From: Gonapodya sp. JEL0774
Lineage: Eukaryota
NCBI GenBank assembly: GCA_027604505.1
Contig: JADIIX010000116.1
Location: 1 to 64,000, forward strand
Direction of reading: 5' to 3'
Length of the DNA stretch: 64,000 nt
This document shows positions 6,357-60,323 of this stretch, one piece after another (the stretch's first letter is position 1; each line of letters opens with the position of its first letter). A program made the translations under genes and the position numbers. A model generated the notes under the pieces. It saw only the letters and a list, made by a program, of their open reading frames with translations. It was not told the origin of the DNA and did not search any database.

Positions 6357-8671
6357 ATGATTCGCTCTGTTTCGGTTTCGTTTTGGAGAAAAGATCAACG
6401 CGACATTAGCAAAGCGGTCGATTGCTCATGATTCATACAACGTCCAAGTGTGAGTGTTGAGTGCTTTCGGGGTGAAGTCGATCTATTGTGACTCATCTCC
6501 ATTCTGCTCTGCTTCATCCACTGGGCGAATTTCTTCATAGCGCGGGACTCCCTCCAGCTGTAGAAGAGGTCAGACATTGTCACATTGTTCCCCATGATCC
6601 GTTTTCCACCCACCCCACCGAGTCTGACGGACCTCCAAACTCTTTATCAGATGCGCCAAGTCGCCCACGAATGGGCTCAGAGGGAGTTGGCACCCATTGC
6701 TGCAGAAGTAGATCGGACCAACCAATTTCCCATGGACATGTGGAAGAAGATGGGGGATATGGGATTCTTGGGGATAACGGCACCTGGTGAGCGTTGGGTG
6801 CATTTGCAGCTAGAGCAGGAGAAAGACACCCCTCCTCGCGTCACCCACCCCTCCACCTCCCCCATCTCTCAAGAGCAATACGGCGGCACACAGATGGGCT
6901 ACCTCGCCCACGTTGTCATCATGGAAGAACTTTCCCGCGCCTCTGGCTCTGTCGCTCTCTCATACGGCGCCCACTCCAACTTATGCGTCAACCAGCTCGT
7001 CCGGAACGGCAACGAAGCACAAAAGAGCAAGTACTTGCCGGATTTGATCGCGGGAGATAAAGTGGGCGCGTTGGCCATGTCCGAACCAGGGAGTGGGAGC
7101 GATGTGGTGTCCATGAAGTTGAGGGCGGATTTCAAAGGTGTGTATGTGTATTTGTGGGTGTGGGATGGATTGGGACGGGAGGGAGGGGTGGGGTGACCGG
7201 TGTGTGGGTGATGATGAGCAAGTTTCCCCAGCGAGGAACCTAATCACCCCCGAACGAGCTAAAATTTGACAATTCCAAACTCTCTTCGTCAAGGTGATCA
7301 CTACGTTCTGAACGGAAACAAAATGTGGATCACCAATGGGCCCGATGCGGTGAGTAAATGGTGTCCCCTGAATCAGTTCTATAGGCATCACCACGACTTC
7401 ACAACGCATGTCACCCGGGTTACTGTCTCCCCCAGGACGTTCTCATCGTCTACGCGAAAACGGATGTCACCAAGGGACCCCACGGAATCACTGCATTCAT
7501 CATTGAAAAGGTACATGATGAACCAGCCCGGTTTCGTGTCGTATCTGGCCACTTCTTTCTCTCCAACGTTGCAAACCCTCCCTTCCACCAACCACAAACC
7601 CCCCCTATGCACACCGGGCGTCCACTTCTTCTTCCCTCTAGGGCATGAAAGGCTTCACAACCGCGCAAAAGCTCGACAAACTCGGCATGCGCGGGTCCAA
7701 CACGTGCGAGCTCGTCTTCGACAACGTGGAAGTCCCCGCAGAGAACGTGCTGGGCAGTGTGGGGAAGGGTGTGTACGTGCTCATGAGCGGGTTGGATCTG
7801 GAAAGATTGGTTCTGGCCGGCGGGCCACTCGGGTATGTGCAATTGCGACGACGCTCTGTTATCGCTTTCTGGCGCAATTGCTTTTGTACGACATTGTACA
7901 AATCCTCCTTCTTGTTCTTCCAACTCTGTAGACTTATGCAGGCATGTTTGGATGTCGTTGTACCTTACGTGCACGACCGAAAGCAGTTCGGGCAGCGAAT
8001 CGGCGAGTTCCAGGTTCGCGTCCGTCGCGCTCGTCCAAACACATCCCCTCTCCTCACGCACCACCCATTGGCCTCACCCGCCACCGCTCCCCCATCTCAC
8101 CGTTTGTGCCCTTCCAGTTCATCCAAGGGAAACTCGCGGACATGTACACGAAACTTGGTGCTTCCCGCGCCTACACGTACGCCGTCGGTCGAGCCGCAGA
8201 GGCCGGCCACGCATCGAACAAGGATTGCGCGGGCGTGATTCTGTATTCGGCGGAGAGGGCGACCGAATGTGCACTAGGTTCGTGATTTGTTGTGGTACGC
8301 ATGACCAGGCCCTGGTCAAACGGGGGATTTCGGCCGTGCGAGGGGTTGCTCATGCCACCGTCAAATTTTTCCTTCCTACGGCATCTCTGTTCTCAGATGC
8401 TATTCAATGTTTGGGTGGTAACGGTTACATCAACGACTACCCGACCGGGCGGATACTGCGAGATGCCAAACTGTACGAAATCGGCGCCGGAACGAGCGAG
8501 ATCAGACGGATGCTTATTGGTCGGGAATGTGAGTTGGGCGCGTTTTGGGTTTTCGAAACTGGCACTTGTGCACCCCCATGACATTACTTTCCACAACCCC
8601 ACCTCCCTTTCCTCGCCCTTTCGCGTGGTGTTCTCTCCACAGTCAACAAAACATTCAGTAAGTCGAAATAG
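6357..8671 (+). CDS. IVD: Isovaleryl-CoA dehydrogenase, mitochondrial; multi-exon, 5' exons approximate
   Basis: Motifs [93 protein letters not shown] and [40 protein letters not shown]. Confidence 0.95.
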
Positions 8672-8771: not shown

Positions 8772-11700
8772 TTAATGCAAATACGATGACGGTCCCACTG
8801 CATCACCCCACGCCCCGCCACTTGCCATTGCCGGACTGGTCGCCGCGTACCCCTGATCCAGCAGACCTGCCGCACTCGCACCCGCACCACCAGGGATCGC
8901 TGGCGGGGATCCGTTCATTGCGTTTTCTTTTTGGAGGCGCTCGAGGACGCGCTTTTTGTGCGAGGATATGAGGACGTAAAGAAGGGAAGGTACTGTGGGG
9001 CACGAGAGGAAACCCCAACGAAAGGTGTGTGATTCTTTAATTCTCGCACCATCCATTGGACTAGCCCACCAGCGTTGCAGTTTCAATCCTCACCTATGAG
9101 TACGATGCCCGCAATACCTGCAATTACACCGTACACCAGTGCGTTGTTGGTTGTATACACGGGTTTGTTTGGATCGACGGTCGTGGTGTTGGTCACGTTG
9201 GGGAAGGTGTTGTTGTTCTGGATGATGGGTATGGTGATGTTCAAGGTCGTATTTGTGAGAGTGGTGTCGGTGGGGGGTATGTATGGGGCCACGGGGGGTT
9301 TGATGTCTGGGGAGGAGTCGCAGCAGGATGTGGAAGGGGATGGGGGATGGGGGGCGGGGCGATTCCAAGAACAGAAAGTGAGCAATAGACACTGAATAGA
9401 AATGTCGAGCGAGAGATACTCACATGTTTGTGGCACCGTGTATGTATACACGCAATCCTAACGACGGATCGATTTCAGCGCCACCCCACCGATCACCCTC
9501 CACGGTCGCGACCCCGCTCACCTCCACCGGCGCCCCCACCACCATCGCCCACCAATTCACGCTCAGCCCGACCCCGAAATGATCCGGACTGTAACTCGAC
9601 CCCGCGGGCGTGGCGGCGCTCTTCTTGAGCGACGCGACCCGTGCGAACGAGTACCCGTACGTGGCCGACGACGCGCCCGTGGACACGTTGGCGAAAGCGC
9701 CCGCAAGGAGCTCGTCCCCGATGCTGGGCTTGACGCCCCTATAGTACACGTGGGCCTCTCCAGACCCGGTTGCGTCGTTGACGGGGTCGGTGACGACCAG
9801 GAACCGTGCGTCTGGCGTCATGGCCAGACTTGCGCCGAAAAAGCTGTGGTCACGTTGGTAGTGTTTGCGGACAGGTGTGGTGGACGTCCACGCTGCGTCG
9901 CCTGGTGCTCGGTAGAGCCCGTGGACGCGGGTGGATTCCCTTGGCGCGGCGATCTGGACGTGGACGCGGCCCGAGGTGGGGTCGGAGGCCATGGCGATCG
10001 CGCGGCCAAAGTAGTCTTCTTGTTTGTAGGACGATGTGGAGGAGAGGTTTGCGGCCCATATGGTGTCCGAGGATGGGGCCAGGGCGAAGAGACCCGAGGT
10101 GGTGTTGTACCGGAAGATTTTCACCACACCGGCGGGGGACATCCATGTCGGGTCTGTGACGACGTAGTCGCGGAGGGCGAGGGTCAGGTTTGCCAAGGAT
10201 GTTCCCGATACGGTGAAGTCCACGCCCAGAGTTCCCATCGCCACGGGGCTGGCGATGGCCAGCTGTTGCCTGTACGAGAACCCCTTTGCGGCTGTGGCGT
10301 TGCGTTGAAAGACGTAAACGCCCGATCTGACCACGTCGGCGGGTATGCGGTTGGTGTTCCAGGATTGGTCGCACAGGTTGGCGTTGTTGGTGTTGCACTG
10401 GTACCCGTCGGTGCCGCCGTTGACGGCCACGAAGAGGAAGGTGGAGTTGGGGTCCGTGGAGAAGAGGACTTTGGAGCCGAATTTGTCCCAGACCTGGGTG
10501 GGTGGGGGGGGGGGGGGGGCGGGTTGGGAGGGAGGGGCGAACAAAGAGGTATTGGGCGAGGTTACGTGGGATGGGGTAGGAGCGACAGGCAGCGAGGGTC
10601 CCCTGTGACGTTGTATCGGGATTTAGCACCTACCCTTTGAGTGACGCCGACGTCTGTGATGAGCAGCTCGTTGTTCGTGAGGTTCGTGACCGTGGCCCCG
10701 CTCACGGAGTAAATCTTGACCGCCCCGACTGTGAACTTGAACCCGGATGAATCAGCGTTCGCGCCTCGTCCCGGCACGCCCACCGCGAGCAAGGACGAGT
10801 CTGTGGACCAGGCGAGGGACATGCCAAAGAGGGACCACTCGAAGGAGGAGAACGTGTTGTTCCACGATCGGGTGGACCACACTGTGCTGGCGACCAAGGG
10901 GTCCACCATGGAAGCGAGCTGGGTCCAGGAGACGGAGGAGGGCATGGACGTGATTTGGGAGGCGACGGTGTCGACGGGGACGCAGACGGGTACGAGGGTG
11001 GACGAGTACGGGACGGTGCAGTTCGTGTAGAATGTAGAGGGGTCGAGGGAGGAGGTGGCGTCGGGGGAGGTGATGTTGGCCAGGCAGGTGGAGGAGACGA
11101 GTTGGCCGGTGGCGTTGTTGGGACACCAGGCGAAGAAGACGTTGCTGGTGTTGGTTGGCGAAGGGGTCGAGGTGGAGTAGATGTGGACCTGGAACGGGGG
11201 AGGGGAGTGGGCGCCGTGATGATGAGGCCGGTGAGGAAAGGGAAATCGTGAGTGTGGCCGGGCGGCGGTGCGGTGCGCGAACAAGAGGTGTAACGACGCA
11301 ACAAATCTGCACCCACGCTGCTGTCCCAGGGCTTTCCAACAGCCTAAACGATTTAAAAAAAAGTATCAGCGAGGCAGCGCGACAAACGAGTGGTTTGGTG
11401 GGGGGGCCATATTCGCGATCGCGATCCGAGACGAACCAGGAGGGTCCTGTTTTGCATGCCGTTGGACAAGGCGACAGAATAGCCAAACATTCCACCACCC
11501 CAGCTACGCTCTCCAACACCAAATCCCGTGCACGTTTTTGAACCAGCGTTGGCGTCGACGGAGTAAAGGAGGATGGGATCGTTCACGGCGGCGTGGCAAG
11601 TTGGGGCGAGACAAGCGAGCAGCAGAGCGACCACAGCCCCTGATGTCAAAGAAGGAAGGGAAACAAAACAAGGCCATGAAGTACAGTTGGGGGGGTCATT

Positions 11701-11831
11701 GGATGATGAGACAGAGAAAGCAGAAATTGAGCAAGGTACAGACAGATAAGGAGAGAGTAGCGAGGACGGATGGAAGACAGCAGAGTCCAACGATTGAAGG
11801 AGAATGGAAGTAGCAAGGAGCGAGTTCGCAT
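8772..11831 (-). CDS. Type I membrane protein with a seven-repeat FG-GAP (integrin-alpha-like) beta-propeller, a T/N-rich stalk, one TM helix and a ~65 aa tail; start may be 11867
   Basis: Signal-like segment AVVALLLACLAPTCHA. Repeats: MFGYSVAL..LAVGKP..VHIY; LFGMSLAW..LAVGVPG..GAVKIY; KFGSKVLF..SGVYVF; TLGVDFTV..GVVKIF; YFGRAIAM..IAAP; FFGASLAM..VVTDP..GEAHVY; HFGVGLSV..VVGAPVEDCVYIH. TM is ALVYGVIAGIAGIVLIVPSLLYVLI, followed by SSHKKR. Confidence 0.8.
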
Positions 11832-12060
11832 TCGAAGGGGAGCTGCGGTTGTGGACAGATTCAGCATGTGGTTGATGTGGTGTGGTGTGGTGCGGACTGT
11901 GGCCATTGTTGGGGGTGCTCTGTGGCCCGATCATGACTTCGCCGATCATCTGCGTCCCAAGTTCCTATCCCTGTCGCCTCCCCCCCATTCTCTGCTCTCC
12001 CCCTCATTCCTTCCTCGAACTCCAATCTGATCTCCTCCTGCCTGCATCGTTTCCCTCCCA
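11832..12060. promoter_or_regulatory. Putative bidirectional promoter shared by the FG-GAP and PA14/NPxY receptor genes
   Basis: Divergent start codons about 200-230 bp apart, with pyrimidine-rich leaders on each strand. Inferred from geometry only. Confidence 0.5.
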
Positions 12061-15000
12061 ATGCGCCACTCCCTCTCCCTCTCCCTCTCCTCTCTTCCCC
12101 CGACTCTTTCCCTCCTGCTGCTCTGCTTTCTCCATCAATCCGCACGCGCTCAATACCCGCAAAACGTCACTGTATCGGGATTCATTCGAGGCAGGTCTTC
12201 TTCTTCTTATTCCGATTCCCTGTTCTTGCCCACTCCTGCCCACACCCCACGCTCTCTTCTCTTTATTCTCCCTCTCTTCTTCTCTCCTCCAAAACCCAAT
12301 TCAGACATGCCTCGACTCCATCCCGATTTCGAGCTGGCACATGCCGCTGGCATTCAACAGGGCTGGTTGTCTCAGTACCTGCTCTCTTCTGGAAAGGCAC
12401 TCGCTACTCCGTATCAGCTCCGCGGAAACGCTTCCTTCGCCGCACCAAATGGAAACACTGGTCCCTACACCGTGTGGCCCGCAACCTCTCTCACCACAAA
12501 CATCACCAACTATTTCCACGGCTCTTTCTACTTTGAAGAGGTGCGTACTCTGTAAGAGAACTGTTTGCTCTTGTTGTGTTCGTGAAGATGACTCCACGTC
12601 TTCGTGACCCACTGTGATCGCGGCTGCCGCCAACCTCTTTGACGGCCTACGATCCTCCAAAAGTGGTGAGTCCTCACCACAGTTCCACCTCGCCGTGACA
12701 TGTTTCTCTGAAACCCACCGCGTCTGCCCTCCCACTCCCCCCACCTCCCCCATCCAAGGTTCCAAGACACACCCTACATCAACATCCTGTACCCCGTCAC
12801 CCTCACCTTGACCCTCGCCAACGCCACCACCGGCACCTACGTCTACGACAGTAGCGTCGCCGACTCCACGGGACGGAAGGGGTTCTTCCCTGTCGACGTC
12901 AAGGGGTACGGCTTGCGAGAGGTAAGAAAATTGTGCCCGTGCGTGTCCGGGTGGGAAGCGGGACGAGACAGTCAAGAGTGATGGTAACAAGAGCGGGCGG
13001 TTGCGCGTACCCCTTTTTAGACCGACACCAGCGTCGACCCCAACACACCAGGAAGCTCGTACCCTAACCGAAACTTTGCCTTCACGTCCGAGTTCCGATA
13101 CAAGTTCTTCTACAGAGGTGCAATATTCAGATGAAGCATTTCAGGACCTCCACCAACCAACCACTCAATCCTCCCGCGCTGGGGGCCGCCGGGCCGCGCC
13201 CCCGGGCGGAGCGGGGCGGCGCGNNNNNNNNNNTCCTCCCTCCCTCCCACCCTCCCCCCGACCCCGAACGCCCCCCCCCCCCCACCCCGTATCCTTCCAT
13301 CCCCAAAGGCGGCGAAGTTTTCTCCTTCTCGGGCGACGACGACCTCTGGGTGTTTGTCAACAACCGGCTCACCGCGTGCGACCTCGGCGGTCTCCACGCC
13401 GCCGCGACCTGCAGCTTCGCACTCGACAACATTAAAACCACCCACAATCTCACCCTGAATAGAGCTTGTAGGTGGTTTTTGTTTTTGTCCCCCCCTCAGT
13501 CATCACGGACATGGCTTGGTTGCTGTTGTTGCACACCACACGGGTTCTTGCTATACTAATGGGCCGGTTTCACACTCCCGTGGCCCATCTCAAAACTACC
13601 CCCGCCGCTGTTCCCCTCCCGCTCCCGCAGACGACATCTACGTCATCGGCGCCGAGCGGCACACCACGGCGTCCAACTTCAAGATCACCACATCCATCCT
13701 CCCCAGCAACACGGCACCCATCGCCTACAGCCAGACCGGTGACAAGGCCGTGTCCCTTTTGGAAAACAGCGACCCGGTCACCGTCACCTTGGCCATTTCC
13801 GACCCCGATCCGTGGCAACAGACCTTCACAGTCGTGGTGCTCACCGGGCCGCTGGGGGGCACGATCAACGTGCCGGTCGGAAGCAATATCACGATCGGGG
13901 CGAGTGGGGGCGCCGGGTCGCAGAGTTCCATGTATTACTACGGGATCACGGTGGGTTTTCGGGGCGGGGGGTGGGTCACACTCAATAGAGGAGCAGCGTG
14001 AAAAAAGAGTTGGAACGGGCAGCGGCACGAGACACACATTTTCACAATTACTTTCTTTCTTGTTTTGTTGTGTGTGTGGATGTGTGTGTGTGTGTGTGCA
14101 GTATCAACCAAACAAATACTTTTACGGAGTCGACAACATCACCTTCCAAGCCTCGGACGGCACCGACACCTCAAACATCGCGACGGTCCAGTTCGCCGTC
14201 CAGTTCGTGGACCGTGAGTGGTTTGTACTCTTGTTCGTGAAGTAAGTTTCTGATCCGTTCCACATGTCGCACCCCACCTCCCTCCTGTCCAGAACCCCCC
14301 GCCCCGCTCACCAACATGTCCATCAACGCGACCATCCCCACCCCCGTTTCCATCACGCTCAACGCGACCGACATCGACACACCGGCCTCACAACTCCGGT
14401 ACTATGCGGGGCCCGACAGTCAGCTCGGAACCTACACCGTCGACTCCCAGTCGGGGAACTTGACGCTGTACCCGGAGCTCGCCGGGTCGGGAACCATACC
14501 CTGGATCGTGAGCGATGGGACGTACAACGTGACGGGATATGTGAACGTGACGGTGTGGCCGGCTCCGAATGGTTGAGTATTGGAACGGCACCCCGAGAGT
14601 GATTGATGCGGCCGTGCAAAGTGCCCAAAGATTCACCCCGCGACTCGGTTTTTTCTCACACCTTGTCTGCACCCACCCACGCAAAGTCCCCCCCACGGTC
14701 TTCAACTCCTCATTCAACTGCACCGTCGGCGACACTGTCGTGAGGAAGCTGAATGCCACCGACCCCGACACCCCAGATGCCTCGATCGTGTTCTTTGCGC
14801 TCAAGTCCACCTCGATCGGAAACATCGAACTCGACCCAAACGGAACGCTATCGTTCTACTGTGGGATGGAGGGCAATGATACGCTTTTGTACAGGGCGAA
14901 GGATGTTGTCAGTGTTTCGGACGTCGCGTACATCTTTGTCAGGGTGTTTCCGGCACCAGGTGAGTTTTATTGTACGGAACGATGACACAAACCCGAACCT

Positions 15001-15352
15001 CTGGTTAGCTGCAGTTGATTTGACTACTTTTGCTTAAAACACGTTCATTTTTAGCCGGCGGTGGCCTCCCTCTACCGGTTGTCATTGGAATCGGTGCAGG
15101 GGCTGGTGTAGCACTGATTGTCGGCACGGTACTGGGGGCATACTTTCTTTACACGACCGTGGCTGCAAAGAAATTCGAGGACCTGTGGAGGAAAGAGTTT
15201 GCAAGTGCTCAGATCAAAGAAAATCCTCTGTGAGTGCCACTGCATCGATTCGCCTGTGACCAGACCCGCTCGCTCATTCTCTTGGCTTGTACGGCAGGTA
15301 TGCGGCCACCGGGGGAGGAGAGCGTTCAAATCCACTATACAATGGAAGATGA
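12061..15352 (+). CDS. Type I membrane protein: signal peptide, PA14/fibro-slime domain, three cadherin/Big_9-like repeats, GxxxG TM and a double-NPxY cytoplasmic tail
   Basis: Signal MRHSLSL...LLLLCFLHQSARA. Fibro-slime motifs GFIRD..HPDFE, GTYVYDS..GFFPVD, RNFAFTSE, GGEVFSFSGDDDLWVFVNN..DLGGLH and AERHTTASNFKITT. Repeats carry N.AP/DPD/SDG-type motifs. TM is LPVVIGIGAGAGVALIVGTVLGAYFLY. Spliced tail (intron 15230-15297) is KKFEDLWRKEFASAQIKENPLYAATGGGERSNPLYNGR*. Confidence 0.85.
14070..14098. repeat. Interrupted (TG)n microsatellite at an intron 3' end
   Basis: gtgtgtgtggatgtgtgtgtgtgtgtgtg seen directly. Confidence 0.8.
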
Positions 15353-15468: not shown

Positions 15469-18400
15469 TCACATTTTCACTTCCAACCGACATCTGAAAC
15501 GAGAAGCGTAAAAGCAATCAGAAATGTTTTCGTCAACGGCATCGACCTCCCAATCGTATCACTCACATGGGACACACGCCGTTTCCCCTCAACCAATTTT
15601 TGACACAATCTCCATGATAGCTGTGCAAGCACGGTAACACTGCCAACTCCTCCCCGTCGACGAAATCCTCCAAACATACTGTACAACGACTTTCGTCACT
15701 CCCATCACTCCCCTGCCCAGTTGGAGCGACCGCACGGTACTTCTTGGTCGGCAAACCTGCGACGGACCGCTCATCAAGGCCCCGCTGCTTTACTTCACCC
15801 ACTCGCTCACCAAGGGCAAGCAATGTTTCATAGTCCGCGCCCTCTATCGCATCGTCGGGCAAGTAGTTCGCGATGTTAAATGCCACTCCCATTCCACCGC
15901 CGTTGCCGAATTGCCGGCCCGGCATACCTGGGAACGGTAACTGAGGTCCTAAAATGTCCGCAACGTCAAAGATACCCATCTCATGCAAAGCGTGAACCAT
16001 ATCCGGATCTATCACAATGTTGTGATGTCTGCTCTGCCGCAGTGGACGGAAGTCACCTAAAGGCTCCTCCAGCCCAATATCCTCATCCGCAAAATGGACC
16101 AGATGGTCCACAGGGGGGTTCATTCTTCCATTCACCAAAAAGCCGTTCCCACCGCCTCTGCGGCTGCCCCTGCTACCCCTTCTAGGTCTCAATGACCTGC
16201 CAACACCCCCAAATATCTCCTCCACTCCCTCAACTCTCACGCCCATCCCCTCGTACTCCTCCATCTGCAACCGCATCGCCAATTCCTCATCCGTCAAACC
16301 CACTTCCGCATTCCGCTCCGACCCAACGGCTTCTCGTGTAATTATCACCCTGTCCCGGCCCCTCTGCGATTCCACACTTGCTCCCCGTATCATCCGTGCC
16401 GCCGTCGGCTGCATGGAAGGTGAGACGAACCCCCGCACCCGGCCTGCAGGAGACACCCTCCGTCGAGAAGCAGGTGGCACTGGAGGTGCCACAACAGTTG
16501 CTCTGGAGGACGTCCCAAGTCTAGGCCGGGTTGAATGGCCCCGCACAGACACATCCGCTACGACATCTCTCGATATGTCCCCAAACGTCCTTGAAAATTC
16601 CGATCTTCCACTGGTAGTCCCTCTTGATCCACCAGCGCGAAGTTGAGTCTCTGCTACGGCACTCCCCCCCCTTCTGGCAGTCCCTAACGTAGTCCGCACC
16701 ACTCTCCTGTTCACTGTCCCCCGTGGCAATCCTTCGTCAGTATCAGAATCCGAGTCAACCTCGATCACTTCTCGCTCTTCTTCCAACTCCCGTCTGGCCT
16801 GTCTGTCTCTTTGTGCTCTTCCCGCCCCCGACACCGCTCCATCTGCTCCAGTCGGCGCCCTCCTCGGTCTCGAAAAAGCGTTTCCTGACCTCACTGCAGC
16901 TGGACGAGTCACCGTGGACCTTGTGTCCACCTCCCTCGCGTAGTAAGCAGCCACACCTTCTATCCGGTCCGCCCTCCTCGTAGTTCGCTCTCCACCATTC
17001 ACAGACGCCGCAGACGCAGTCGCGTCCGAGCCAATTATCGATGACGTCCTCTGAGGTAGTATTGGCGGCCTGGAAAGTGTGACCACGTGTCTGCGCTGCG
17101 GTGGAGGCGGGGGTGGGGAGTGGGGCCGTGGTGGCGAAAGCGGACTGTCGATGTCTGGTCGAAGGTATGAGAAACCGGGATAAAACGTTTCCATGGGCTC
17201 ATCAAACCTGTCGTATGGGGGAAGATCATCGAATGGCGGTGCTGCCGCAGCTTCAGCCAACACAACGTCGGCTTCAGCGGCCTCGTCTCGTTGCAGGCGA
17301 GAGCTTTCACGCCAAGAGGGTGAGCGTGGGATGGCGGAAGCAGCCCACGGTTCGTCGCTGTTATCGGGGGGATTTGAAGGGGAGGAACGAGGCCAATCGT
17401 TGGTTCCAAGCTCCAGCAACGCATTGCCAAATCCGCTCATGCGCTCGGAAGAGCCATTTACAGGAGACCAAGGCACTCGTCGGTCCTCCTGTGCGCCGAA
17501 AACCTCGCCATTAGTTCTCATCCCATGTGTGCTTCTCCAGCCCCCGAGAAGTTGCTCCAGCGAGAACCCATTAGACGATTCGACCCTGAGATCTATCACG
17601 GGAGGAGACGAGGAGAGTGAGGCACGCTGTGTAGTCGCAGCGGTAGACAGCCCGTCCTCGGATGAGGAGCCATCAATAGATTCTGCTCTGGCTGGATCAC
17701 CCAAAGCGCCTTGCAACTGGTTGGCGCGACTCCAAGATTTGTCGCAAGAGGTACCATTCAAGGTGACGACTAACCATGCAGATATCATAGGATAAGAGAA
17801 TAACTGAGACGCCGTATGAATGCAGGCACTCATGAACCCACCAGTATTCCCTTCGTGGGGTATTTCCCGCTCACGTGGCTGTGCCAGTCCACGTAGCCAG
17901 TTCCGTCTGCCAGAGCCACTTTGCGGCCCTTGTCCATCATCGGTTTCAGATCCGCTCGCATCATCACTGACTATTGGGTCCTTCTGTTTAAGTGCGATGC
18001 TGCCACGTTCTTTCACCTCGTGTGTGGTACGGGAGGACCTGTTGTTACGGACTATACTGGTGTCCAACGTCGGGAGCGGATCACGATTCGGGCTACTTTC
18101 CACAACCACATGCGCTTTCGATTGAGTCACGCTCGCGACGATTGCGAACGGTTCGTGCGCTAGTGGGCTTCCGGTATCGGAATCGTCATTGATGACGGGA
18201 GTGTGGTCACGGGGAACACGAGGGCGGTTGCCGGCTGAGGAAGTGGAGTGTTTTCCAGACACAAAATCGGAAGTAAAAGAATTGCGGGTTTTAGCAGATG
18301 AGGAGATGGTGGGGCGAGTATGAGTTAGCGCAATGGACGGCGGCACAGATGATGAGGAGGAGTGTGTGGGGAATTTAACTGCGACATGGGTGGTAGCACG

Positions 18401-18853
18401 AGATGCGGGTGCACCGGCGGTGGAGGAAAATGAAGTTGGGGACGTATTGGACGAAGGAGTCTTCGCATTCACATTCAGAGCTGACAAGTCCGTAGAATCA
18501 CCCGTCCGTTTCCTTTTTCTTTGGACGTCTCGCAAGTTTGTAGAATGTGGATCGGAGGAGAATCCACCATATTTTGACAGGGAAGATCCTCCTCTGAGCG
18601 CAGAGGATTTGTTTTGGAGTCCATCGACATCGAAGGAGTGCGCTTTGCTCATTCTTCCTGTTCGATGGCCATCACCGGAACTCTTACCCTTGGAAGGCAA
18701 GGTTCCCCCAAACGCCAGATCCTCCTTATCTGTCCAGCCGGTTGCTCCATGATCGCTCATGTTGCCGGTTGGCTGAGAGTGGCCATTTTCGTCCGTACCG
18801 GGGCCGTTTCCCAAACGACCGTTGCGCCGCATTTCCACTGCAACCGCGCTCAT
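15469..18853 (-). CDS. C-terminal RING-H2 E3 ubiquitin ligase (RNF38/RNF44/Arkadia-like C-terminus) with a long disordered N-terminus
   Basis: YETLLALGERVGEVKQRGL precedes CTVCLEDF..LPCLHSYHGDCVKNWL....CP. The last small exon gives ICRLEVKM*. UIM-like DEELAMRLQMEEY is present. Confidence 0.85.
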
Positions 18854-19489
18854 AGCGGGAAGATGAGAGAACTTCCTCGCAATTCCCTTTATCCGCGATC
18901 TGCTTGTGGAAGTGATTCCCCGCTGTCAGGAGACCACCGCCCAAGTCAAACCACCGCCTGGTGGACTGTAGCAGAGGCGGATTTCCTTCACAGAATTGAC
19001 TTGTTGAAGTCGAATGAGTATTCTTGCACGTGTGCTTTCGGTGGACTGAAACGATCGAGACAGTCGAGTTGCGCAACCGATTGTCGGTCGTCCAATTGAA
19101 CTCCCTCGCTCGAGTGGCACTAAATAATTTGTATGAAGATCACCCCAAAGCAGTTCACTATTAGATCAAACTCTGTATCAAACACCCAGACAAGCCTAAC
19201 GTCCTTATTTTGTGGTGCTTCGCTAGTTTTGGCGGTGATCTGACTCCGTGGGATGCTGTAAATGGGAGAGCTTGAGGGCCCGAGTTTTGATCCTGGCTCG
19301 CCCCTCTTGGGAATTGCAGTGCAAATAACTTCCTTGGAGAAGAATGTATTGAGACAGATAATGAATTCTACAGAGTTCCCATGGGCTGCCAGTGTGACTC
19401 CAGCTTATGTTAACCCAATTCAACTCAACCGAACTGTGTCGTGTCGAAAAACGCATAGGGCCACATTAGCTGAGGAACATGTTATTCCT

Positions 19490-21876
19490 TCATTGATCGC
19501 GAATCACACTCACGTTGTGGCTGACCAGCTCAGTCACCAAGGCCCCATTCACCAGCTTCGTCCGGAGCTGCTCAGCAACGGGCTTCTCCACCCAATCATC
19601 CCCCACTTGGAAGCTGACGTTCATCTCGGAACTCTTCGAGGACAGGATTTCAACGTCACGAGAGTCATTGCTCAAGTAGATCTGGAAGCCGTCGGTTTTG
19701 TCAACGGAGATGGTGGGAAGCTTGCCAGTCACTTGCAGCTGAATAGACTTGCAGTTCACGGATTCAACTGTGGCAACGACAGATTCGACCACGACACCGC
19801 ACTTCTTGCAGTTATCTTTGGGAGTGACAAGGGCGAGCCGCACGGAAAATTCGATCAGCACCACACGGGAATCATGCACTCTATATGCAAGGAACTCACC
19901 AATGGTTACCCCATTACACTTTCCCTTGATCTGAACAGTGCATCCTGCGAGGTTATAAAGGACCACGCCCTGACGCATGTCAGTGATCTCCACGACCAGC
20001 TCGGTGTTGTTCGTGTAATTTTCCTGATGTTTGTGATTCTCTTGCCAAATTCGCCAAACAACAGTGACCATGATTGCAGCTCACCACAAACCACTTGGAT
20101 CCATCCAGCTCCATGCGCGGGGGTTTAGCAATTGTACTGGGCTTGCCGGCCGCCGACGTTGGCGCACTCTCAGATTCTAAAGTCAAGAGAACCAGGATCA
20201 GGGTCCACTCCCACATGTGCACTCCATAACTTCCTCCATCCCCATCACCGCAGCTCAAAGTGACATAAGAGACTCACTCTTGTCCCCAGGTACCACGCTG
20301 GCCCCCCTCAATGCTGGGTTCTTGTGTGTCATCTGAGATTTGTCCACGTGCTTCAATCCGGCGGTCACTGCTTCACCCTTAGATAACTCGGCGAACATCG
20401 ACATACGCGCCGCGCCATCATCGGGCTTGCCGGAGTCGGCGGAAGCTGGCGCGGGTGGTGGAGGAGGGGGAGGGCCCGGGGGAGGTGGAGGTGCCCCACC
20501 CGAAGGTTTGGTGGCGGTGGGTGCGGACGCGGCGAGTATAGACTTGGCGTCACCACCCTGAACAGTGAGAAGAACAGCATAGCAGAGTATAATGGAGAGC
20601 CCGGGATATTTGGAGTTAACCGGAACTGATGAGGCACTGGCAACTTTGACAAGATTGGATAACACAACCGACTTTCGGGTTCCACACCAATCCTGTAGTG
20701 TGATGTTTTTTGACGTACAGGTGCAGTTCCGAGAGGAGGTCAAGCAGAGACTTAGCCCAGTCAACGTGCGATTTGTCTCTGTTGTGTGATGAAGTGCGAC
20801 AAAATACAAGGAAGGGGTCAAGAAAGAGTGCAGAGCCCGCACAAAGAGAAAGAGAACCATAGATGTTAGAATGTCGTTTCCCACAAGCCGTCTCTCATAG
20901 ACTCTTTATGAAGAGTCAAACAACTCCACAGCCGAACCAAACAACACCCACTTGTCCTTAAACTCCTTAAGCACTCTGTTGGTATAGAACTGGGCCGCTT
21001 GCTTCATTTCCTCGACATATGGTGCTGGTTTGGGTTCCTTTTGTTGATGACGAAGAACAGGGATGGTGTGAGTGCGTGGAATAAACGCTCACAACCTTCG
21101 CTACAGCGTAGAGATTGACAGCAATAGCCTCCTGCATTAAATCATGAGAACCACTCTGAAGATATCTCACAAAAACGACAACACTGAGCCCTGTGATCCT
21201 CCTGGGTGAGGGATTTATCCCCCTACCAAAGGTGTGCCATCCAAGATTCTCAGAAACTCACGATCATGACCCACCCCAGTCCAGGAGCTCCCTCCGCAAC
21301 TGCACTCAAATGATTAAACAAGGGGCTCGGCCTGTTCTTGTCCTTTATCTCCACCACTTTCTGGAGGGCCGGCTGCAAGCCCGACGAGACAACCAGAGTC
21401 TGCAGAGTAGGGGCATCGGGTTTCTTCGCAAGGGAGGCGGTGGATATGATTTGGAGCTGGGAGGCGAAGGCGGTTTGGATGTGGAGGGACTGCAAAAGGA
21501 GACGAACGGTGGTTGAAACGAAAGAGTGTTTGCGGGTTCGCAGAGCGGTGGGTTTGTTCCATATATGGGTGTCGCGCCACTCAAACCTCTCATTTCGACT
21601 GTCCAAGATCCTCACCTGCTCTTTTACCAACCCTCCAACACTTTCACTGGCTGCTAAAAACGCCCTCAGCTGAGTCTTGATGATTTCATCGTAGGCCTGC
21701 GCCGCAGGACTCATAGTTTCGGCTTCTACCAAGGCCTTCTTATCTGCGGACGCAGTGCCAGCAGGGGAGCGGGCTGAGGGTGGAACTGGAGCTGGTCCTT
21801 TTGAGAGGGCTTCGAGGCGAGACGTGGCGGTCTCCAGTCGCTTAATTAGCTCTGCAAGAGTTGCACTAAAGGACAT
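19490..21876 (-). CDS. SRV2: Adenylyl cyclase-associated protein (Srv2/CAP); multi-exon, exact 3' end uncertain
   Basis: LIKRLETATSRLE N-terminal motif, FNHLSAVAEG..LGWV, AQFYTNRVLKEFKD, poly-Pro, WH2 GLKHVDKSQMTHKNPALR, and CARP beta-helix IKGKCN..DNCKK..PTISVDKTDG..SSKSSEMNV..EKPVAEQ. Confidence 0.95.
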
Positions 21877-22680
21877 GAGGTATGCAGGAACGGAAGGGGG
21901 TGAATTTGATGAGATACTGCAACAATTGGATGGGTTCACTGATTCGCGGCGCACTCCTTTCCAATCCGTTCAAATTGTATTTACGCGTCGACGGTCAGAA
22001 ATCAGGTGCTCCAAAAGCAAAGCAGACATGAAACCCCGTCATCGTTGGCCGCGTTCATTCATGCCCTCACTGTCGTCGCATCCCAGTTGAAACAATGCAA
22101 CTCAGTTTTATGAGTTTACATATGTCAAATGCCACGCCCTGAGAGAGAGACTGAAATCTCCATGTAAAATGCACGTGATTTTGGCAGGGATTCCATTTGA
22201 GTGTGAATGAGAACTCGACGGCATTTCGGACATGTGAACGCCTGTCACAATCCCGCCGACACTGAGGCGACTACCCCCCATCGTAGCCGATACTACTACG
22301 GAAATGCTTCCCGATTTCGCAAGGGGATAGCAGTATGGGGCATTGATTGAACTCACCTTTATAAAACGGATTCAGGTTGAAAGATTGGTTGGGATTGTGT
22401 TGGAGAGCAGGAAGGGAGCCAGGGGAATGAGGAGACCCAAGCGCATGAAAAAACCGCGAGCTCAGATGAACATATTGGAATCAGAAGGAGGACTCGGGAG
22501 GCGGCAACGCACGCTTCAGCCATGGTGGTAAAATTGAGTGCTCGCTTGAAATGTTACTATAGTGTGATTACCACTGCACTCTGCAGACTGCTACACACCC
22601 CCCCTCCCCACCCCCACCCCCGAGTGCATTCTCCAACTGACTTCAGGGATGGCCCCAATCAAAGAAACTGATTCCATTCT

Positions 22681-44010: not shown

Positions 44011-47000
44011 ATGTTTGCGTACTTGGCAAAGAAGGCTGGTGTCTGAACTCATTTCTGAACGAACTGCCCGTGGCGCAAGTTTCGGGGCTAATGCTACCAT
44101 CCCTCATCCCCCTTGAATCCATCGTGATCCACAATCAACGATTTCCGGTCTGCAACAATCGTTTTTGGCTGCAACACATACTCTCGTATTCAGGTTGGGA
44201 TCCCCAACAACTCGCGTGTGCTTTCGCTGGGATGGGAAAACGAAGGAGGTTACATTGCGTGTGGTGGTGACGCCGGACTTCTCAAGGTCATCAAGCTGGA
44301 ATCAGGAAGCGGCACGGCCACCTCAGGAGGCTCTACTATATTTTCTGCCTCAGAGCCGGGGGTCTTGAATGAAAAACCAACGGGATCTGCCGAAAGGATC
44401 GCATCTGATGCAACGGCACAGGCGTCTGGAGGACCTTTCTCCTCTTCCACTTCGTTGACAATGAACCAAACTCTCACTGGGCATAGCCAGCATGTCACTC
44501 TTATCCGTTGGAATGCGATCTACACAAAACTCACTACTGCTGACGCGTCTGGTCTGATAATCGTTTGGATCCTCTACAAAGGCGCGTGGTATGAAGAAAT
44601 GGTGAACAATCGAGGGAAGTCCACAGTCGCAGATATGCGGTGGGACCCTGAAGGTCGAAGAATTTGCATTGCTTATCGAGACGGAACCGTCATTTCCGGG
44701 TCAGTTGATGGCGCTCGATTGTGGAGCAAGAATCTGGGTGGCTCTCCGACCAGCTTGGTGTGGTCTCCGGACGGAACTCAGCTCCTTTTTGCAATGGACT
44801 CAGGCGAAGTACAATTGTGGGACTACAATGGTGGACGTGTTGGTGTCCTGGAATCCCTGTCAAACCTCTTTGCAGGACCCGCAAAATCCTCCAACCAAGG
44901 GGCCATCACCATCTCCTCAATGGAGTGGTTCCCATACCAGTCATCATCTCCCTCTCCTTTCAGTTTAGTGACATTCCCCTCACTTGCCATCTCTCTCTCT
45001 TCTGGCACAATTCTTCTCCTCACATCACAGCGTGACCTCAATCCACTCACCATTTCAACCCCACTCTCATCCCCACTACTTGCATGGAGCTCGTCTGGTA
45101 CCGTTTTGGCAGCAGCGGGTGTGCCTCTCATCGCGACACCTCAAAATGCAATGCAAGATTCCAAAGCTGTCCCGCAGCTGCTCCTCCTTTCCCGGAATGG
45201 GACTCTCCTCCGCCACCTTCGGATTCCTGGTCGCTGTATAACCAGTTTAACGTGGGACACTTCCACGTGTGATCAACGACTAGCTGTCGGTGTGGACTCT
45301 TCCCTCTTTTTCGTGAACGTCCGATATGACAAATGGGATCAATGGGGTTGGTGCGAAGAGATGGATACCCGGCACGGTGGAGTGACACGATCAGGTGTTG
45401 GTGGAGGAACAGTGGTGTATTCCTGGAACCGAAGTAGAGAGCGACATGGAAGTCGAAAGACTGCAGATGACAATGATGCTGGGTGGGGCATCGGGTGGTG
45501 GAATGTGGAGACAGGAAGCAAAGTAGTCAAGTGAGAATTCCAAGAGTTCTGCTTGATACGGGCGGGGGCCACGTTTAAACAATCGCTCTTGTAGGTCTAT
45601 CCGCCACTTCCATTTCCTGTGCACCTCCCCCTCCTCGACACTCATCATTCACTCGTCGGCTGGGTCATTGGCTCCGCTGGCATCACTTTCCCAACCTCTA
45701 ACAGCGTCCGCGACCGCCCTGGCTAACTCGATCCCAAAAACAACTGCCACAATTACCAACCCAAACGGCACAACTGTGACCTCCCTTCAACTCGCCCCAA
45801 CCTCGTTTGTCCCCACTGCTGCCACTTTGACTTCCACACATGCTCATATCGCGTCAGGACCTTGGATTGTCTCCTGGGAGTATCGAAAACCCAAGCAAGC
45901 GTCTGGAAGTGACCTTCCAGCACCCGGAAAGAGAGCTTCAGTTATTGCCCGGATCGCGGCTTTAGATGCTGCAAGGAGGGGATCCTTTGCAGGCCAAGGC
46001 CAAAGCAATGTAATGAGTGAGGGTGTACGATGGTGGACAATCGGCGATGCATCAGAGAAGGGTTGGAATGCGGGAGCGGGCCTTGGTGGATGGACTGAAG
46101 ATGTGTGAGTACCTAGGCATAACTGACTATGTAAGCCACGAGCCCCTCTGATTCCCTTCGGCTTGCATGATCTTCTTTTCAGAACTACGGATGATCCGAT
46201 TGTCGCTCTCACTGCCTGCGAGACCACACTGATTGTAGCACGTTCTTCTGGGACACTGGTTCAGTTCTCTCTTCCAACAATAACCTTGCAACACATGTAC
46301 TCTGTTGGTTCTTCCCCCTTGCACATTTCTGTTAATTCTACAGCTACTCTCTGCGCGGTGCTCGATACCTCTAATGTCTGCCGAGTGGTTCAGCTCTCTC
46401 CAAACTCCAGCACAGCGACGTCGTCGAGTGAATTGGTCCCACTGCCGGCCGCCATGCTGCCACTAGCCCAAAAAGATGTGACATCCTTTCTCTGGTCTTC
46501 AGACCCCGACTCTCCCGAACACCTTGCCATGGTCGATAAGTCAAAGTTACTTGTCTTTAATGGGTCTCAAATGAAGCCCGAGGAGCCAGTAGCATTCAGC
46601 GGATGGCTCTTGGGGTTCAAAGGACTGGAAATTCTTGGAGTTGTGGGAATGGAGCAAGTAGCGAGGGATCCAGACGACGGTTGGGACAAAACCGTTATTG
46701 CGTCTAGAGAAACAGAGGCAATTAGGAAAGTCCGAGGTGAGAATCCTTAACAACTTTTCACTACGACATATGGTGGGATGCTTGTTTTAAAAAAAATTAT
46801 TTTGTTTCTCCAGAACTTATCTCAGATCAGGGCGTATTGGAGGCCCACGCATTTGTCGAGGCAAACCCACATCCTCGTCTTTGGAGGCTTGTAGCTGACG
46901 CTGCCCTGGACGGACTAGACTTTAACACCGCAATGAAAGCGTTCGTAAAGTGCACTGATTGGGGTGGAATAACGCTCGTGAAACGTGTTTCTAAATTGGA

Positions 47001-49036
47001 TGTGAGTACGCAGGGGTCCAGTGACCGTATTGCAAATTTCACACCTCGGATTGTGCAGGACAAACGAAAACAGCGCGCCGAAATTGCGACATACTATGGC
47101 AACTTTCACATAGCTGAATCGATCTATCTTGCCATGGAACGCCCCGATCTCGCATTTGACATGCATGTCGAAGTGGGAAACTACGAACAGGCTCTGCGTC
47201 TTGTGGAACCAAGTAAGACTACGACGTCAGGGATACCCGTACGTGAGCCTTCGCTACCGAAGCGGACCATGAGCGCATCGGTGACTGTTTCAGACAAGCA
47301 AAAATTGGATCTCTACGATCTCATGGGGGATCAATGTCGTGAGGCGAGCAATTGGAGAGAAGCGGTTGGGTGGTACAAACGTTCCAACAATGTAGCTATG
47401 CAAGTGGAAGGTCTCTATATGTCGCAGGACTGGGAAGGTTTGTCGAAAATGGTGGATGTTGTCGAGGATGGGGATGTGCTCAAGGTTTGCAAGAGAACAT
47501 CCATAGCAATGTGACGCGGTCGTTGGTGCTCACTACTTGACTTGCTCCTTAGGATTTGGCAGTTAAACTAACGACTGTGGGTATGTGGGAATCGGCAGTC
47601 GCGGCTTACCTGAAAGCTGGCGATCAGAAAGCCGCCGTTGACGCGTGCATATATCTGAATCAGGTAACTTTTGCGACTGCTTCGTCGGCTGTATAACACC
47701 ACTGTTGCTGACATTGTGGACGTATTGAAAGTGGGCCGAGGCGCTTCGACTGGCCCAAGGCGCACAAGCTGTCGAAGTACGAGGGAACCTGGAAAAGTTC
47801 GCGTGCTACCTTCTGGATCGTGGGAGGAGAATGGAATGCGTGGAACTCTATCGATGTGCGGGTATGCCAGGTCGATCAGCCACGATGCTCTACGACGTGA
47901 GTCGATCGTAAATTTCATACAACTTCATGGAGAAGGTTATCGCCGACGACAAGGACGATGGAAGCATCTGTTTATTCTGACCGCTGCTTTTTAGATGGCA
48001 AATGAAGTTGCACAAGATCCGAACGTGGAACCCCTGTCCGCGAAGAAAATGTTTGTCTTGGCGGCTCTGGAGGCCGGCCGGTACAAGGATGGGAAACGGG
48101 GCGTTGATCATGCCACAATGGCAAGTGGAAATAGCCCTGAAAGGCTTCCGACAGCTTTTGATCCACGCCAAATCTCCCTGTTAGGACGGTGGTCATGCGA
48201 CGCTCGATGCGCTGTTGACGGCGTCGGACCCGGTGGCAACTGGCCAGACAGTAAGACTACCGGAGAATCTGTGGAAGGCGGCTGAAGCGTGGCATTACTA
48301 CATGTTGGCACAAAGTCAGTTTTACGCCGGGGATGTTGAACCTGGATACGTCACGGTGAGTCGGTCACTCCTCCTGAGCTGGTCAAAAGCGTAGTCACAA
48401 GAAAGTTAAATCTTTCCACTGACAGGCCCTCCATCTGAAATCATTCGACGATGTTCTGGACCCTCGGCGAATATTCGCCCTGTTGGCTATTCTGTCATTT
48501 CAGACTGGACGCGTGGCAACTGGTGGGAAAGCTTTGGGTAAGCTCGAGAGCATGGAGAGGGCAAAAGGGGAGGCTGCAGGAGGCGAAGTGGGGAAATGGA
48601 AGGCGATGGCGAAAGAGATTTTCCAAAAGTTGGTTTCACTTGTATTGCTCCCACCTGGTTCCTCCCTCCACGACTCATACACTTATCCGTTCCCACACCT
48701 GCGCCAGATATCCCCCAAACGATGCACCTGTTCCCACATCCCTGTGCTGCAACTGCGCCTCTGAAATTCCCAGCACCAGCACCGCATGCCCGCATTGCTT
48801 TTCCACATTCTCTCTGTGCGTGGCCACGGGCCAACCCATTATCGAAGACGCGGACGTGGCTGGGCAGTTTCTGTGTGCTGGGTGTAGGCATAGGGTTGCG
48901 GGCCGCGAGTGGGCGAGGGCGGGGTACCGGTGGTGTCCTTTGGTGAGTGATAGTGAGATTGTGAGGTCTTTAGGGGAGATTTGGGTTTTGATGCTCGTTT
49001 GTGTTCCTCACTTTTTAGTGTCATACGCCAGTGTGA
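44011..49036 (+). CDS. WDR35: Intraflagellar transport complex A subunit WDR35/IFT121
   Basis: MFAYLAKK..IPNN start; GYIACGG..GLLKVIKL; MNQTL.GH; KLTTADASGLIIVW..YKG.WYEEMVNNRGKS.V; GSVDG.R.W; FVEANPHPRLW; WKAAEAWHYYMLAQ; C-terminal zinc ribbon ending CPLCH. Confidence 0.95.
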
Positions 49037-49225
49037 ACTCAGTCGAGCGAAAATCTCATTTTCATCACGGCGTAAATAGTATCATTAAGATTAAATGTAA
49101 TGGAAAGAATCTGACGTCAATCTGGACACCAATCTGCCCCATTTTCCGCTGTCCAATGCTTTAGTATATTACACTCTGTAAAAGTTAACAATGTCCTGCA
49201 TGCTTCACAAGAGTCCATCAAGTGC

Positions 49226-60200: not shown

Positions 60201-60323
60201 GGGGGAAAGGGGGATTGTGGTTGGTTGGAGAGAGCTTGTGTCCAAAAGGGACGATTCACAGTGAATGGCGGCAATGGGTACCTTGTAAACGACGAAATTC
60301 CCAAAGATGGACTGCTGAGCCAT
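57207..60323 (-). CDS. PRP6: Pre-mRNA splicing factor PRP6 (U5 snRNP); spans an assembly gap at 59893-59902
   Basis: [77 protein letters not shown]; many HAT repeats; [12 protein letters not shown]. Confidence 0.97.

What the first reader, a model, noticed from the sequence alone, without database searches (positions are those of the whole stretch)
8772..15352. Head-to-head pair of alpha-like (7x FG-GAP) and beta-tail-like (double NPxY) receptors: a candidate integrin-like adhesion system in a probable zoosporic fungus
Seen: two divergently transcribed single-pass membrane genes whose start codons are about 200-230 bp apart. The minus-strand gene has seven FG-GAP repeats and a GxxxG-containing TM (GVIAG). 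The plus-strand gene has a PA14/fibro-slime domain, three cadherin-like repeats, a glycine-rich GxxxG TM and a short tail with two NPLY motifs. Established: integrin alpha heads are 7-bladed FG-GAP propellers; integrin beta tails carry two NPxY motifs that bind talin and kindlin; fungi are generally considered to lack integrins, although some early-diverging fungi retain intracellular adhesome components such as talin. Inference: the two genes are co-regulated subunits of a heterodimeric adhesion or sensing receptor in which a PA14 lectin-like domain takes the place of the beta vWA domain. These are not canonical integrins: no thigh/calf domains or GFFKR in the first, no vWA/PSI/EGF in the second.
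Basis: partly seen in the sequence, partly recalled or inferred. Interest (0 to 1): 0.9.

Follow-up and report, generated by a model that had tools for sequence, protein, structure and literature searches.

The report
Integrin-like receptor pair in swimming fungus
A water fungus (Gonapodya) carries, head to head, one gene for a surface protein predicted to fold like the head of an integrin alpha chain and one for a likely sugar-binding surface protein ending in the two NPxY motifs that dock talin in integrins and amoeba adhesins; together they likely form the long-missing adhesion receptor of early fungi, but binding is untested.

Summary
Both genes are real. The window is Gonapodya (Monoblepharomycota). 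The minus gene (8 exons, 754 aa) has a signal peptide, a predicted 7-bladed propeller with weak FG-GAP motifs, a ~50-residue low-complexity stalk and one TM. It belongs to a family, apparently undescribed, in Gonapodya, Blastocladiomycota and an aphelid, whose tree follows phyla and whose TM is conserved. The plus gene (about 666 aa) has a fibro-slime/PA14 domain, three Big_9/cadherin-like repeats, a Gly-rich TM and two NPLY motifs. Its head and tail resemble Dictyostelium PA14-repeat membrane proteins, not integrin beta. Neither gene passes an integrin membership test: no cation motifs, legs or GFFKR; no vWA/MIDAS or EGF. The G. prolifera orthologues have consecutive accessions. Head-to-head is the published layout of Capsaspora and Corallochytrium integrin pairs. 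Against: 229-bp spacing is ordinary here, linkage is seen only within the genus, no PA14 partner was found in other fungi, and talin in Gonapodya is unchecked. Best reading (0.45): an integrin-like, talin-coupled heterodimer. Main rival (0.38): a stand-alone SibA/Psi-type adhesin beside a separate propeller receptor.

The parts
8772..11831 (-). FG-GAP-type 7-bladed propeller receptor gene (8 exons, 754 aa): signal peptide, propeller (about aa 31-610), Ser/Thr/Pro/Asn-rich stalk, TM, tail of about 50 aa
   Evidence: Gene model; orthologue KXS17707.1 75%; AlphaFold pLDDT 74, pTM 0.72; Foldseek integrin alpha E 7.5e-11
8949..9142 (-). TM helix (GVIAG at 9130-9116, mid-helix Pro, split by the last intron) and HKKR juxtamembrane motif (8960-8949)
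   Evidence: in 23 family members Pro 22, H[RK] 21, small-xxx-small 22, strict GxxxG 13
11317..11343 (-). 27-nt exon encoding the first-blade AVGKPWDSS motif
   Evidence: present in P0001 and conserved in the family
11832..12060 (.). 229-bp divergent intergenic region, likely a shared promoter (inferred)
   Evidence: other divergent gaps in the window are 309 and 108 bp
12061..15352 (+). Fibro-slime/PA14, three Big_9/cadherin-like repeats, Gly-rich TM and double-NPLY tail gene (11-12 exons, about 666 aa)
   Evidence: Model; annotated protein P0002, KAJ3337578.1; domains
12191..12304 (+). Likely GC-AG intron 1 (in frame; retained in the public annotation)
   Evidence: Removing it joins the first strand to the HPDFE motif; P0002 keeps 38 extra residues; not checked with RNA
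12664..12665 (+). Likely 2-nt micro-exon (TG) supplying the conserved Trp of the fibro-slime F-x-x-W-[YF]-x-D motif
   Evidence: Flanked by AG and GTGAGT, with a TTGAC 24 nt upstream of the acceptor; that column is W in 47 of 51 aligned rows and V in 2; not checked with RNA
12163..13700 (+). Fibro-slime/PA14 domain with GDDD motif
   Evidence: TIGR02148 E 1.6e-25; model of the orthologue matches PA14 sugar-binding domains, Z 8.4, rmsd 3.6, 143 aligned; three Asp invariant in 51 rows
13701..14959 (+). Three Big_9/cadherin-like stalk repeats
   Evidence: Pfam
15078..15146 (+). Gly-rich TM helix (GIGAG, GAGAG)
   Evidence: Hydropathy peak 2.36 at aa 599
15222..15301 (+). Membrane-proximal NPLY (split by intron 15230-15297)
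15329..15340 (+). Membrane-distal NPLY

Best explanation
Two divergent genes encode a predicted seven-bladed FG-GAP-type propeller membrane protein and a PA14-headed membrane protein with two NPLY motifs, which likely act as the two chains of an integrin-like adhesion receptor that would link a surface sugar to actin through talin. Shown: the gene models, domains, motifs, the propeller family and its conserved TM. Inferred: co-expression from the 229-bp spacer. Inferred: the PA14 head, held about three Ig-like repeats from the membrane, binds a glycan through a Ca2+ site at its Asp-Asp motif. Inferred: the proximal NPLY binds the talin FERM domain as in SibA. Inferred: the propeller chain pairs with it, most plausibly through its conserved TM and juxtamembrane helix and possibly head to head, and tunes ligand choice or activation during zoospore or gamete attachment and crawling. 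It would work like an integrin without being a member of the family.
For: (1) Seven-bladed fold; all 45 Foldseek rows shown are integrin alpha chains, best E 7.5e-11; the family profile's best PDB sequence is integrin alpha-L, E 0.016, weak. (2) The family is old: 50 hits including the query; of 20 clusters looked up, 6 are named: five Blastocladiomycota genera and Amoeboaphelidium; the 8 named blastoclad rows form one group at 100/100. (3) The TM is conserved: Pro 22 of 23, H[RK] 21 of 23, small-xxx-small 22 of 23, as expected if it packs against a partner (inference). (4) The double NPLY is beyond chance (3 of 200,000) and its TM-tail is closest to Dictyostelium-type proteins; SibA's proximal NPxY is needed for talin binding (PMC9197732). 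(5) Orthologues KXS17706.1 and KXS17707.1 are consecutive, with the same 559,505-bp longest contig. (6) Integrin alpha/beta genes are head-to-head in Corallochytrium (1 pair) and Capsaspora (4 pairs), and the Capsaspora pairs co-express (PMC5560861). (7) Basal fungi keep talin and other scaffolds with no known anchor (PMC5042518; bioRxiv 2020.06.12.142943). (8) Rough chance estimate (inference): G. prolifera has at least 8,946 proteins (EukProt numbering), so with n double-NPxY receptors a given upstream neighbour is one by chance at about n/9,000. I could not count n.
Against: (1) Linkage is seen only in two congeners about 75% identical, where synteny is expected anyway; orientation in G. 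prolifera and synteny of the flanking genes were not tested. (2) The G. prolifera PA14 model (483 aa) stops at an exon boundary before the third repeat, so its TM and NPLY tail are not on record. (3) No PA14-TM-NPxY orthologue from blastoclads or aphelids among 90 hits. This is weak: only 7,995 candidates were scored and bacteria crowded the list. (4) The spacing is ordinary in this compact window (gaps 108, 309; stop-to-stop 100, 116). (5) By Z-score WD40 propellers tie with integrins (29.9 vs 28.9), and FG-GAP_2 propellers are common in bacteria, viruses and diatoms. (6) No integrin cation motif in 50 of 50 proteins and no GFFxR; the tail matches neither Pfam nor a PDB integrin beta. (7) Dictyostelium uses NPxY receptors yet lacks integrin alpha. 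(8) Talin in Gonapodya is unchecked; neither cited fungal paper names Gonapodya.
Confidence: 0.45

Rival explanations
1. The plus gene is a stand-alone Psi/SibA-type lectin adhesin that couples to talin through its NPLY motifs. The propeller is a separate receptor. They are neighbours by chance, or share a promoter because they act at the same life stage, without binding.
For: Three dictyostelid or dictyostelid-like proteins among 88 non-Gonapodya hits have the same PA14 head, Gly-rich TM and KK-x-x-D-x-W...NPLY tail, and Dictyostelium lacks integrin alpha. The propeller family spans three phyla while the PA14 partner was found only in Gonapodya. The spacing is ordinary.
Against: It needs a coincidence: an alpha-shaped and a beta-tailed receptor head to head, the layout of unicellular holozoan integrins. 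It leaves the conserved propeller TM without a named partner.
Confidence: 0.38
2. The NPLY motifs are endocytic sorting signals (as in LDL-receptor-type tails, recalled), and the PA14 protein is a glycan uptake or sensing receptor rather than a talin anchor.
For: NPxY motifs are general PTB-domain ligands (PMC9197732). The tail lacks the HDR[KR]E motif of integrin beta. Dictyostelium PsiA and DicA1, with PA14 heads, are secreted signals (PMC3325183).
Against: The Gly-rich TM plus paired NPxY layout is that of the talin-binding Sib proteins, and talin is kept in most chytrids.
Confidence: 0.12
3. The double-NPLY tail or the membrane anchor is a gene-model artefact, and the PA14 protein is secreted.
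For: The first NPLY depends on a splice, and the G. prolifera annotation ends before the TM.
Against: The public annotation P0002 has the same last exons; those splice sites are canonical; the spliced tail aligns with Dictyostelium-type tails at both NPLY motifs.
Confidence: 0.05

Closest known systems
Integrin alpha/beta pairs of Capsaspora and Corallochytrium (PMC5560861)
   Same: Head-to-head genes for a type I FG-GAP propeller chain and a type I chain with NPxY tail.
   Different: No cation motifs, Ig-like legs or GFFKR on the alpha-like chain; PA14 plus Big_9 repeats in place of vWA/PSI/EGF on the beta-like chain; pairing not demonstrated experimentally.
Dictyostelium PA14-repeat-TM proteins (Psi-type; DICPUDRAFT_97110, ACTA71_001083, and an unnamed Logan protein P0080)
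   Same: Fibro-slime/PA14 head, repeat stalk, Gly-rich TM and KK-x-x-D-x-W...NPLY...NPLY tail (second motif NALF in P0094).
   Different: The stalk is Cys-rich Dicty_CTDC repeats there and Big_9/cadherin-like here. The head domains are not sisters in the tree, though a common clade is not rejected (p-AU 0.258). The label 'Psi-type' is mine, from the architecture described.
Dictyostelium SibA-E (PMC9197732, PMC12686525)
   Same: Single Gly-rich TM and two NPxY motifs; adhesion receptor in an organism with talin but no integrin.
   Different: SibA has a vWA domain and no PA14; no alpha-like partner is described in the passages read.
Amoebozoan ITGA-like proteins (bioRxiv 2020.04.29.069435)
   Same: Membrane FG-GAP propellers, mostly without GFFKR, some with Pro-rich stalks.
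   Different: All of those carry at least one cation motif; this family has none in 50 of 50 proteins.
PA14 adhesins: Myxococcus TraA, yeast Flo5/Epa, RTX-adhesin PA14
   Same: PA14 head on a repeat stalk; predicted fold match Z 8.4 to an RTX-adhesin PA14 and 5.9 to Flo5/Epa6.
   Different: Those are anchored by GPI or sorting tags, with no cytoplasmic NPxY tail.

Membership tests
Integrin alpha | Seven-bladed beta-propeller head | tested here: met
   AlphaFold model of the orthologue, residues 33-610; Foldseek; VIA Z 28.7, rmsd 3.4, 354 aligned to alphaM, tied with WD40 propellers
Integrin alpha | FG-GAP repeats | tested here: met
   Weakly: FG-GAP_2 E 1.8e-4, 22 bits vs cut-off 23; 32 of 47 family members match at E<=0.1, best 5.3e-9; no match to the integrin-type FG-GAP models was listed
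Integrin alpha | Cation-binding motif D/E-h-D/N-x-D/N-G-h-x-D/E in blades | tested here: not met
   0 of 50 proteins and not in the window model (pattern)
Integrin alpha | Ig-like thigh and calf domains | tested here: not met
   Only about 50 residues lie between propeller and TM, pLDDT under 50 over 625-660
Integrin alpha | KxGFFxR juxtamembrane motif | tested here: not met
   0 of 50; H[RK] plus a short helix instead
Integrin beta | vWA (beta-I) domain with MIDAS DxSxS | tested here: not met
   No DxSxS; the head is fibro-slime/PA14
Integrin beta | PSI and Cys-rich EGF stalk | tested here: not met
   5 Cys in the whole protein, no CxC; Big_9 repeats instead
Integrin beta | GxxxG TM and two NPxY motifs | tested here: met
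Integrin beta | Membrane-proximal HDR[KR]E motif and sequence similarity to integrin beta tails | tested here: not met
   Motif absent; no Pfam or PDB integrin match at E<=10
Integrin heterodimer | Stable alpha/beta pairing and talin binding | not testable with these tools
   Needs co-purification and pull-down experiments; no genome was held to look for talin
Unicellular holozoan integrin loci | Head-to-head gene arrangement | tested here: met
   Window; precedent; in G. prolifera adjacency by accession only
Dictyostelium Psi-type PA14-TM receptors | Fibro-slime/PA14 head | tested here: met
Dictyostelium Psi-type PA14-TM receptors | Cys-rich Dicty_CTDC stalk | tested here: not met
   Big_9/cadherin-like repeats instead
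Dictyostelium Psi-type PA14-TM receptors | Gly-rich TM with KK-x-x-D-x-W and paired NPLY tail | tested here: met
   phmmer of the 72-aa TM-tail against the session's proteins: best three non-self hits are these, E 4e-5, 9e-5, 0.012 (small database)
Dictyostelium Psi-type PA14-TM receptors | Common descent of the head domain | tested here: inconclusive
   Not sisters in the tree; one clade not rejected, p-AU 0.258; Gonapodya on a long branch
Sib proteins | Extracellular vWA domain | tested here: not met
   definition
Ca2+-dependent PA14 lectins | Asp-Asp calcium/sugar site | tested here: inconclusive
   GDDD is invariant and the fold matches, but its register to the Flo5 site was not checked

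The most novel reading that the evidence does not exclude
Fungi did not wholly lose integrins. Aphelids, blastoclads and monoblephs keep an eroded integrin alpha, and in Gonapodya it still sits head to head with, and pairs with, an NPxY-tailed chain whose vWA/EGF ectodomain has been replaced by a lectin on Ig-like repeats. This would be the missing membrane anchor of the fungal talin adhesome and a relic of an ancestral opisthokont alpha/beta locus.
Probability: 0.2. Interest if true: 0.95.

Novelty: new variant of a known kind. Interest (0 to 1): 0.75.

Why it matters
Early-diverging fungi keep talin, vinculin, paxillin and the IPP complex but have no known receptor for them; PMC5042518 states this as an open question. 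This locus names two concrete candidates: a SibA/Psi-style double-NPxY receptor in a fungus, and a conserved integrin-alpha-shaped receptor family that includes the laboratory organisms Allomyces and Blastocladiella. Even under the main rival, a fungal talin-type adhesin and an old FG-GAP receptor family would be new. If they pair, the loss of integrins in fungi needs restating, and the deciding first test is a look at five annotated genomes.

Tried and rejected
Complex prediction (G. prolifera propeller 28-612 with PA14 11-256; ESMFold2, my alignments not used): verdict 'no answer'. Scores were 0.59, 0.60, 0.59; controls 0.00, 0.45, 0.00; the 0.20 margin was not reached. Not used for or against. 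RNA: no RNA holder was listed, so no reads were laid. No whole genome is held, so talin, kindlin, ILK, PINCH, vinculin and paralogues were not searched. Neighbourhoods of distant orthologues: metagenome scan 147 pattern matches, none confirmed; DNA pattern scan 1 match, L001, unrelated on reading its ORFs; viral contigs 78 matches, none confirmed. A pair imported together from bacteria got no support: 0 of 2,238 ORFs (150 aa or more) in 80 bacterial and archaeal fibro-slime loci (835 kb) hit the family profile at E<=1, while 6 of 6 generic FG-GAP controls did; a regex flagged 1 ORF in L059. My first minus-gene model missed a 27-nt exon and an intron and was corrected. Single-sequence PDB searches gave nothing useful. 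ESM Atlas hits were all under 0.9. The AlphaFold model of P0003 is poor beyond the PA14 domain (mean pLDDT 57), so it says nothing on the stalk. The bacterial promoter scan is not applicable to a fungus and found nothing. Earlier findings: three look-ups, nothing. The script stopped on an error after printing the counts used. An RKEFA stretch in the tail recalls the integrin beta3 proximal helix (from memory); I treat it as chance because it lies too close to the NPLY and no profile supports it.
Full report
1. Observation. The window holds two intron-containing genes that diverge from a 229-bp spacer (start codons 11831 minus, 12061 plus). A search with plus exon 6 returned a 100% identical protein annotated in Gonapodya sp. 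JEL0774 (P0002) and a 76% identical one in G. prolifera (P0003). A search with minus exon sequence returned G. prolifera P0001 at 76%. Gonapodya is a monoblepharid, and the window also carries the flagellar gene WDR35/IFT121. The corrected minus model has 8 exons, canonical introns and 754 aa, 75% identical to P0001 over 740 columns. The plus model has about 666 aa. By inspection P0002 differs from it only in keeping intron 1 and in the exon 2/3 junction. All gene models are from sequence and homology, not from RNA.

2. The minus gene. Sequence signal for FG-GAP is weak (22 bits against a cut-off of 23). The AlphaFold model of P0001 (47-row alignment, pLDDT 74, pTM 0.72) gives seven four-stranded blades over residues 33-610, a low-confidence stalk and a TM helix. 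All 45 Foldseek rows shown are integrin alpha chains (best E 7.5e-11, TM-score by query about 0.4). VIA-align ties them with WD40 propellers (Z 29.9 vs 28.9), though integrins give the longer alignments, 354-384 residues against about 300. The fold is therefore integrin-alpha-like but not diagnostic; FG-GAP_2 propellers also occur in bacteria, viruses and diatoms. HMMER over 1.84 billion representatives gave 50 hits including the query, 16 at E<=1e-30; the weakest look like generic FG-GAP proteins. I looked up 20 of the 49 non-self hits. Six clusters carry organism names: Sorochytrium, Allomyces (three species), Blastocladiella, Catenaria, Coelomomyces and Amoeboaphelidium occidentale. Fourteen are unnamed (taxonomy). 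In a tree of 31 family proteins plus the window model, the 8 named blastoclad rows, the 2 Gonapodya rows and the 2 aphelid-cluster rows each form a group at 100/100, which fits vertical inheritance (inference). A C-terminal TM was detected in 27 of 50 (many hits are fragments). I dropped 4 of these, truncated or distant (P0007, P0016, P0046, P0050). In the other 23 the TM has a mid-helix Pro in 22, H[RK] at its exit in 21, small-xxx-small in 22 and strict GxxxG in 13. None of the 50 has the integrin cation motif or GFFxR.

3. The plus gene. It has a fibro-slime domain (E 1.6e-25) whose model best matches PA14 sugar-binding domains (Z 8.4, rmsd 3.6, 143 aligned; middling), three Big_9/cadherin-like repeats, a Gly-rich TM and two NPLY motifs (3 of 200,000 tail shuffles). 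It has no MIDAS, EGF or HDR[KR]E motif, and its tail matches no integrin beta in Pfam or PDB. Among 88 non-Gonapodya hits, 3 have a TM and an NPLY tail: two Dictyostelium proteins and an unnamed one with Dictyostelium-type repeats. They share the PA14 head and a KK-x-x-D-x-W...NPLY...NPLY tail (second motif NALF in one) and are the best non-self matches to the TM-tail. So the beta-like chain resembles an amoebozoan class of NPxY receptors. In a tree of 78 of 90 head domains (12 fell below the score cut) Gonapodya sits on a long branch beside mostly myxobacterial-type sequences. A clade with the Dictyostelium-type proteins is not rejected (p-AU 0.258), so the origin is open.

4. The pairing. 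For: KXS17706.1 and KXS17707.1 are consecutive and share a longest contig length. PMC5560861 reports head-to-head integrin alpha/beta genes in Corallochytrium and Capsaspora, co-expressed in the latter. An alpha-shaped gene beside a double-NPxY gene is unlikely by chance unless such receptors are very numerous (about n/9,000; n not counted; inference). Against: the linkage is only within one genus, with orientation and background synteny untested. The G. prolifera PA14 model ends before the TM. No partner was found in blastoclads or aphelids (weak). The spacer is no shorter than two other divergent gaps in the window, 108 and 309 bp. Dictyostelium uses SibA with talin and lacks integrin alpha. 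I could not obtain DNA around any distant orthologue.

5. Mechanism. Most likely (0.45) the two chains form an integrin-like receptor. The PA14 head would bind a surface glycan with Ca2+ (by analogy to Flo5 and the TraA model, PMC3325183). The proximal NPLY would bind talin (by analogy to SibA). The propeller chain would pair through its conserved TM and perhaps its head. All of these steps are inferred. Rivals: a stand-alone adhesin next to a separate receptor (0.38), an endocytic glycan receptor (0.12), a tail artefact (0.05).

6. Comparison. Neither chain is a member of the integrin families: several defining features were tested and not met. What the pair works like is a separate question, and the layout, fold and tail all point to integrin- or Sib-like adhesion.

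7. Literature. Seen: bioRxiv 2020.04.29.069435 (passages and part 2 of 7), PMC12686525 (passages), PMC5042518 (passages and Introduction), bioRxiv 2020.06.12.142943 (passages), PMC9197732 (passages), PMC3325183 (passages), PMC5560861 (passages). Searches listed no paper describing this family or pair. The library lacks most subscription journals and I read no supplements, so tables in adhesome surveys or aphelid and chytrid genome papers could already list these proteins.

8. Verdict. Observation confirmed; interpretation partly supported. New variant of a known kind, interest 0.75: it gives a stated open question, the talin anchor of early fungi, named and cheaply testable candidates, while the heterodimer itself remains a hypothesis.

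Noticed in passing
window 12664-12665 (+): Likely 2-nt micro-exon restoring the conserved fibro-slime Trp; both public Gonapodya annotations have Val in that column, where 47 of 51 rows have Trp.
   Followed up: partly
window 12191-12304 (+): Likely GC-AG intron, retained in the JEL0774 annotation; the G. prolifera model has a different N-terminus at the same point.
   Followed up: partly
window 13224-13233, 59893-59902, 63611-63620: Three 10-base N runs beside GC-rich simple sequence; the first lies in an intron of the plus gene.
   Followed up: no
window about 6500-8671 (+) and 15469-18925 (-): Flanking genes are an acyl-CoA dehydrogenase and a RING protein, with stop-to-stop gaps of only 100 and 116 bp.
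   Followed up: partly
window 19493-21969 (-): CAP (cyclase-associated protein, an actin regulator) lies two genes from the pair; probably chance.
   Followed up: no
window 44128-49161 (+), 50422-54795 (+), 57210-60446 (-): WDR35/IFT121, a MutS-family gene and, by my reading of the ORF, a PRP6-like gene.
   Followed up: no
P0011, P0014 (unnamed Logan proteins): Propeller-family members with an insertion of about 150 residues after blade 2 and a Cys-containing stalk.
   Followed up: no
Propeller family, alignment A2: A Cys in the last blade is invariant and one before the first blade is common; they could close the ring by a disulfide (inference).
   Followed up: no
bioRxiv 2020.04.29.069435: A PA14 gene is reported adjacent to an integrin beta gene in Mastigamoeba balamuthi.
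   Followed up: no
P0084: Unnamed protein with fibro-slime head, TM and no NPxY tail; looks eukaryotic, so PA14-TM receptors also occur without the motif.
   Followed up: no
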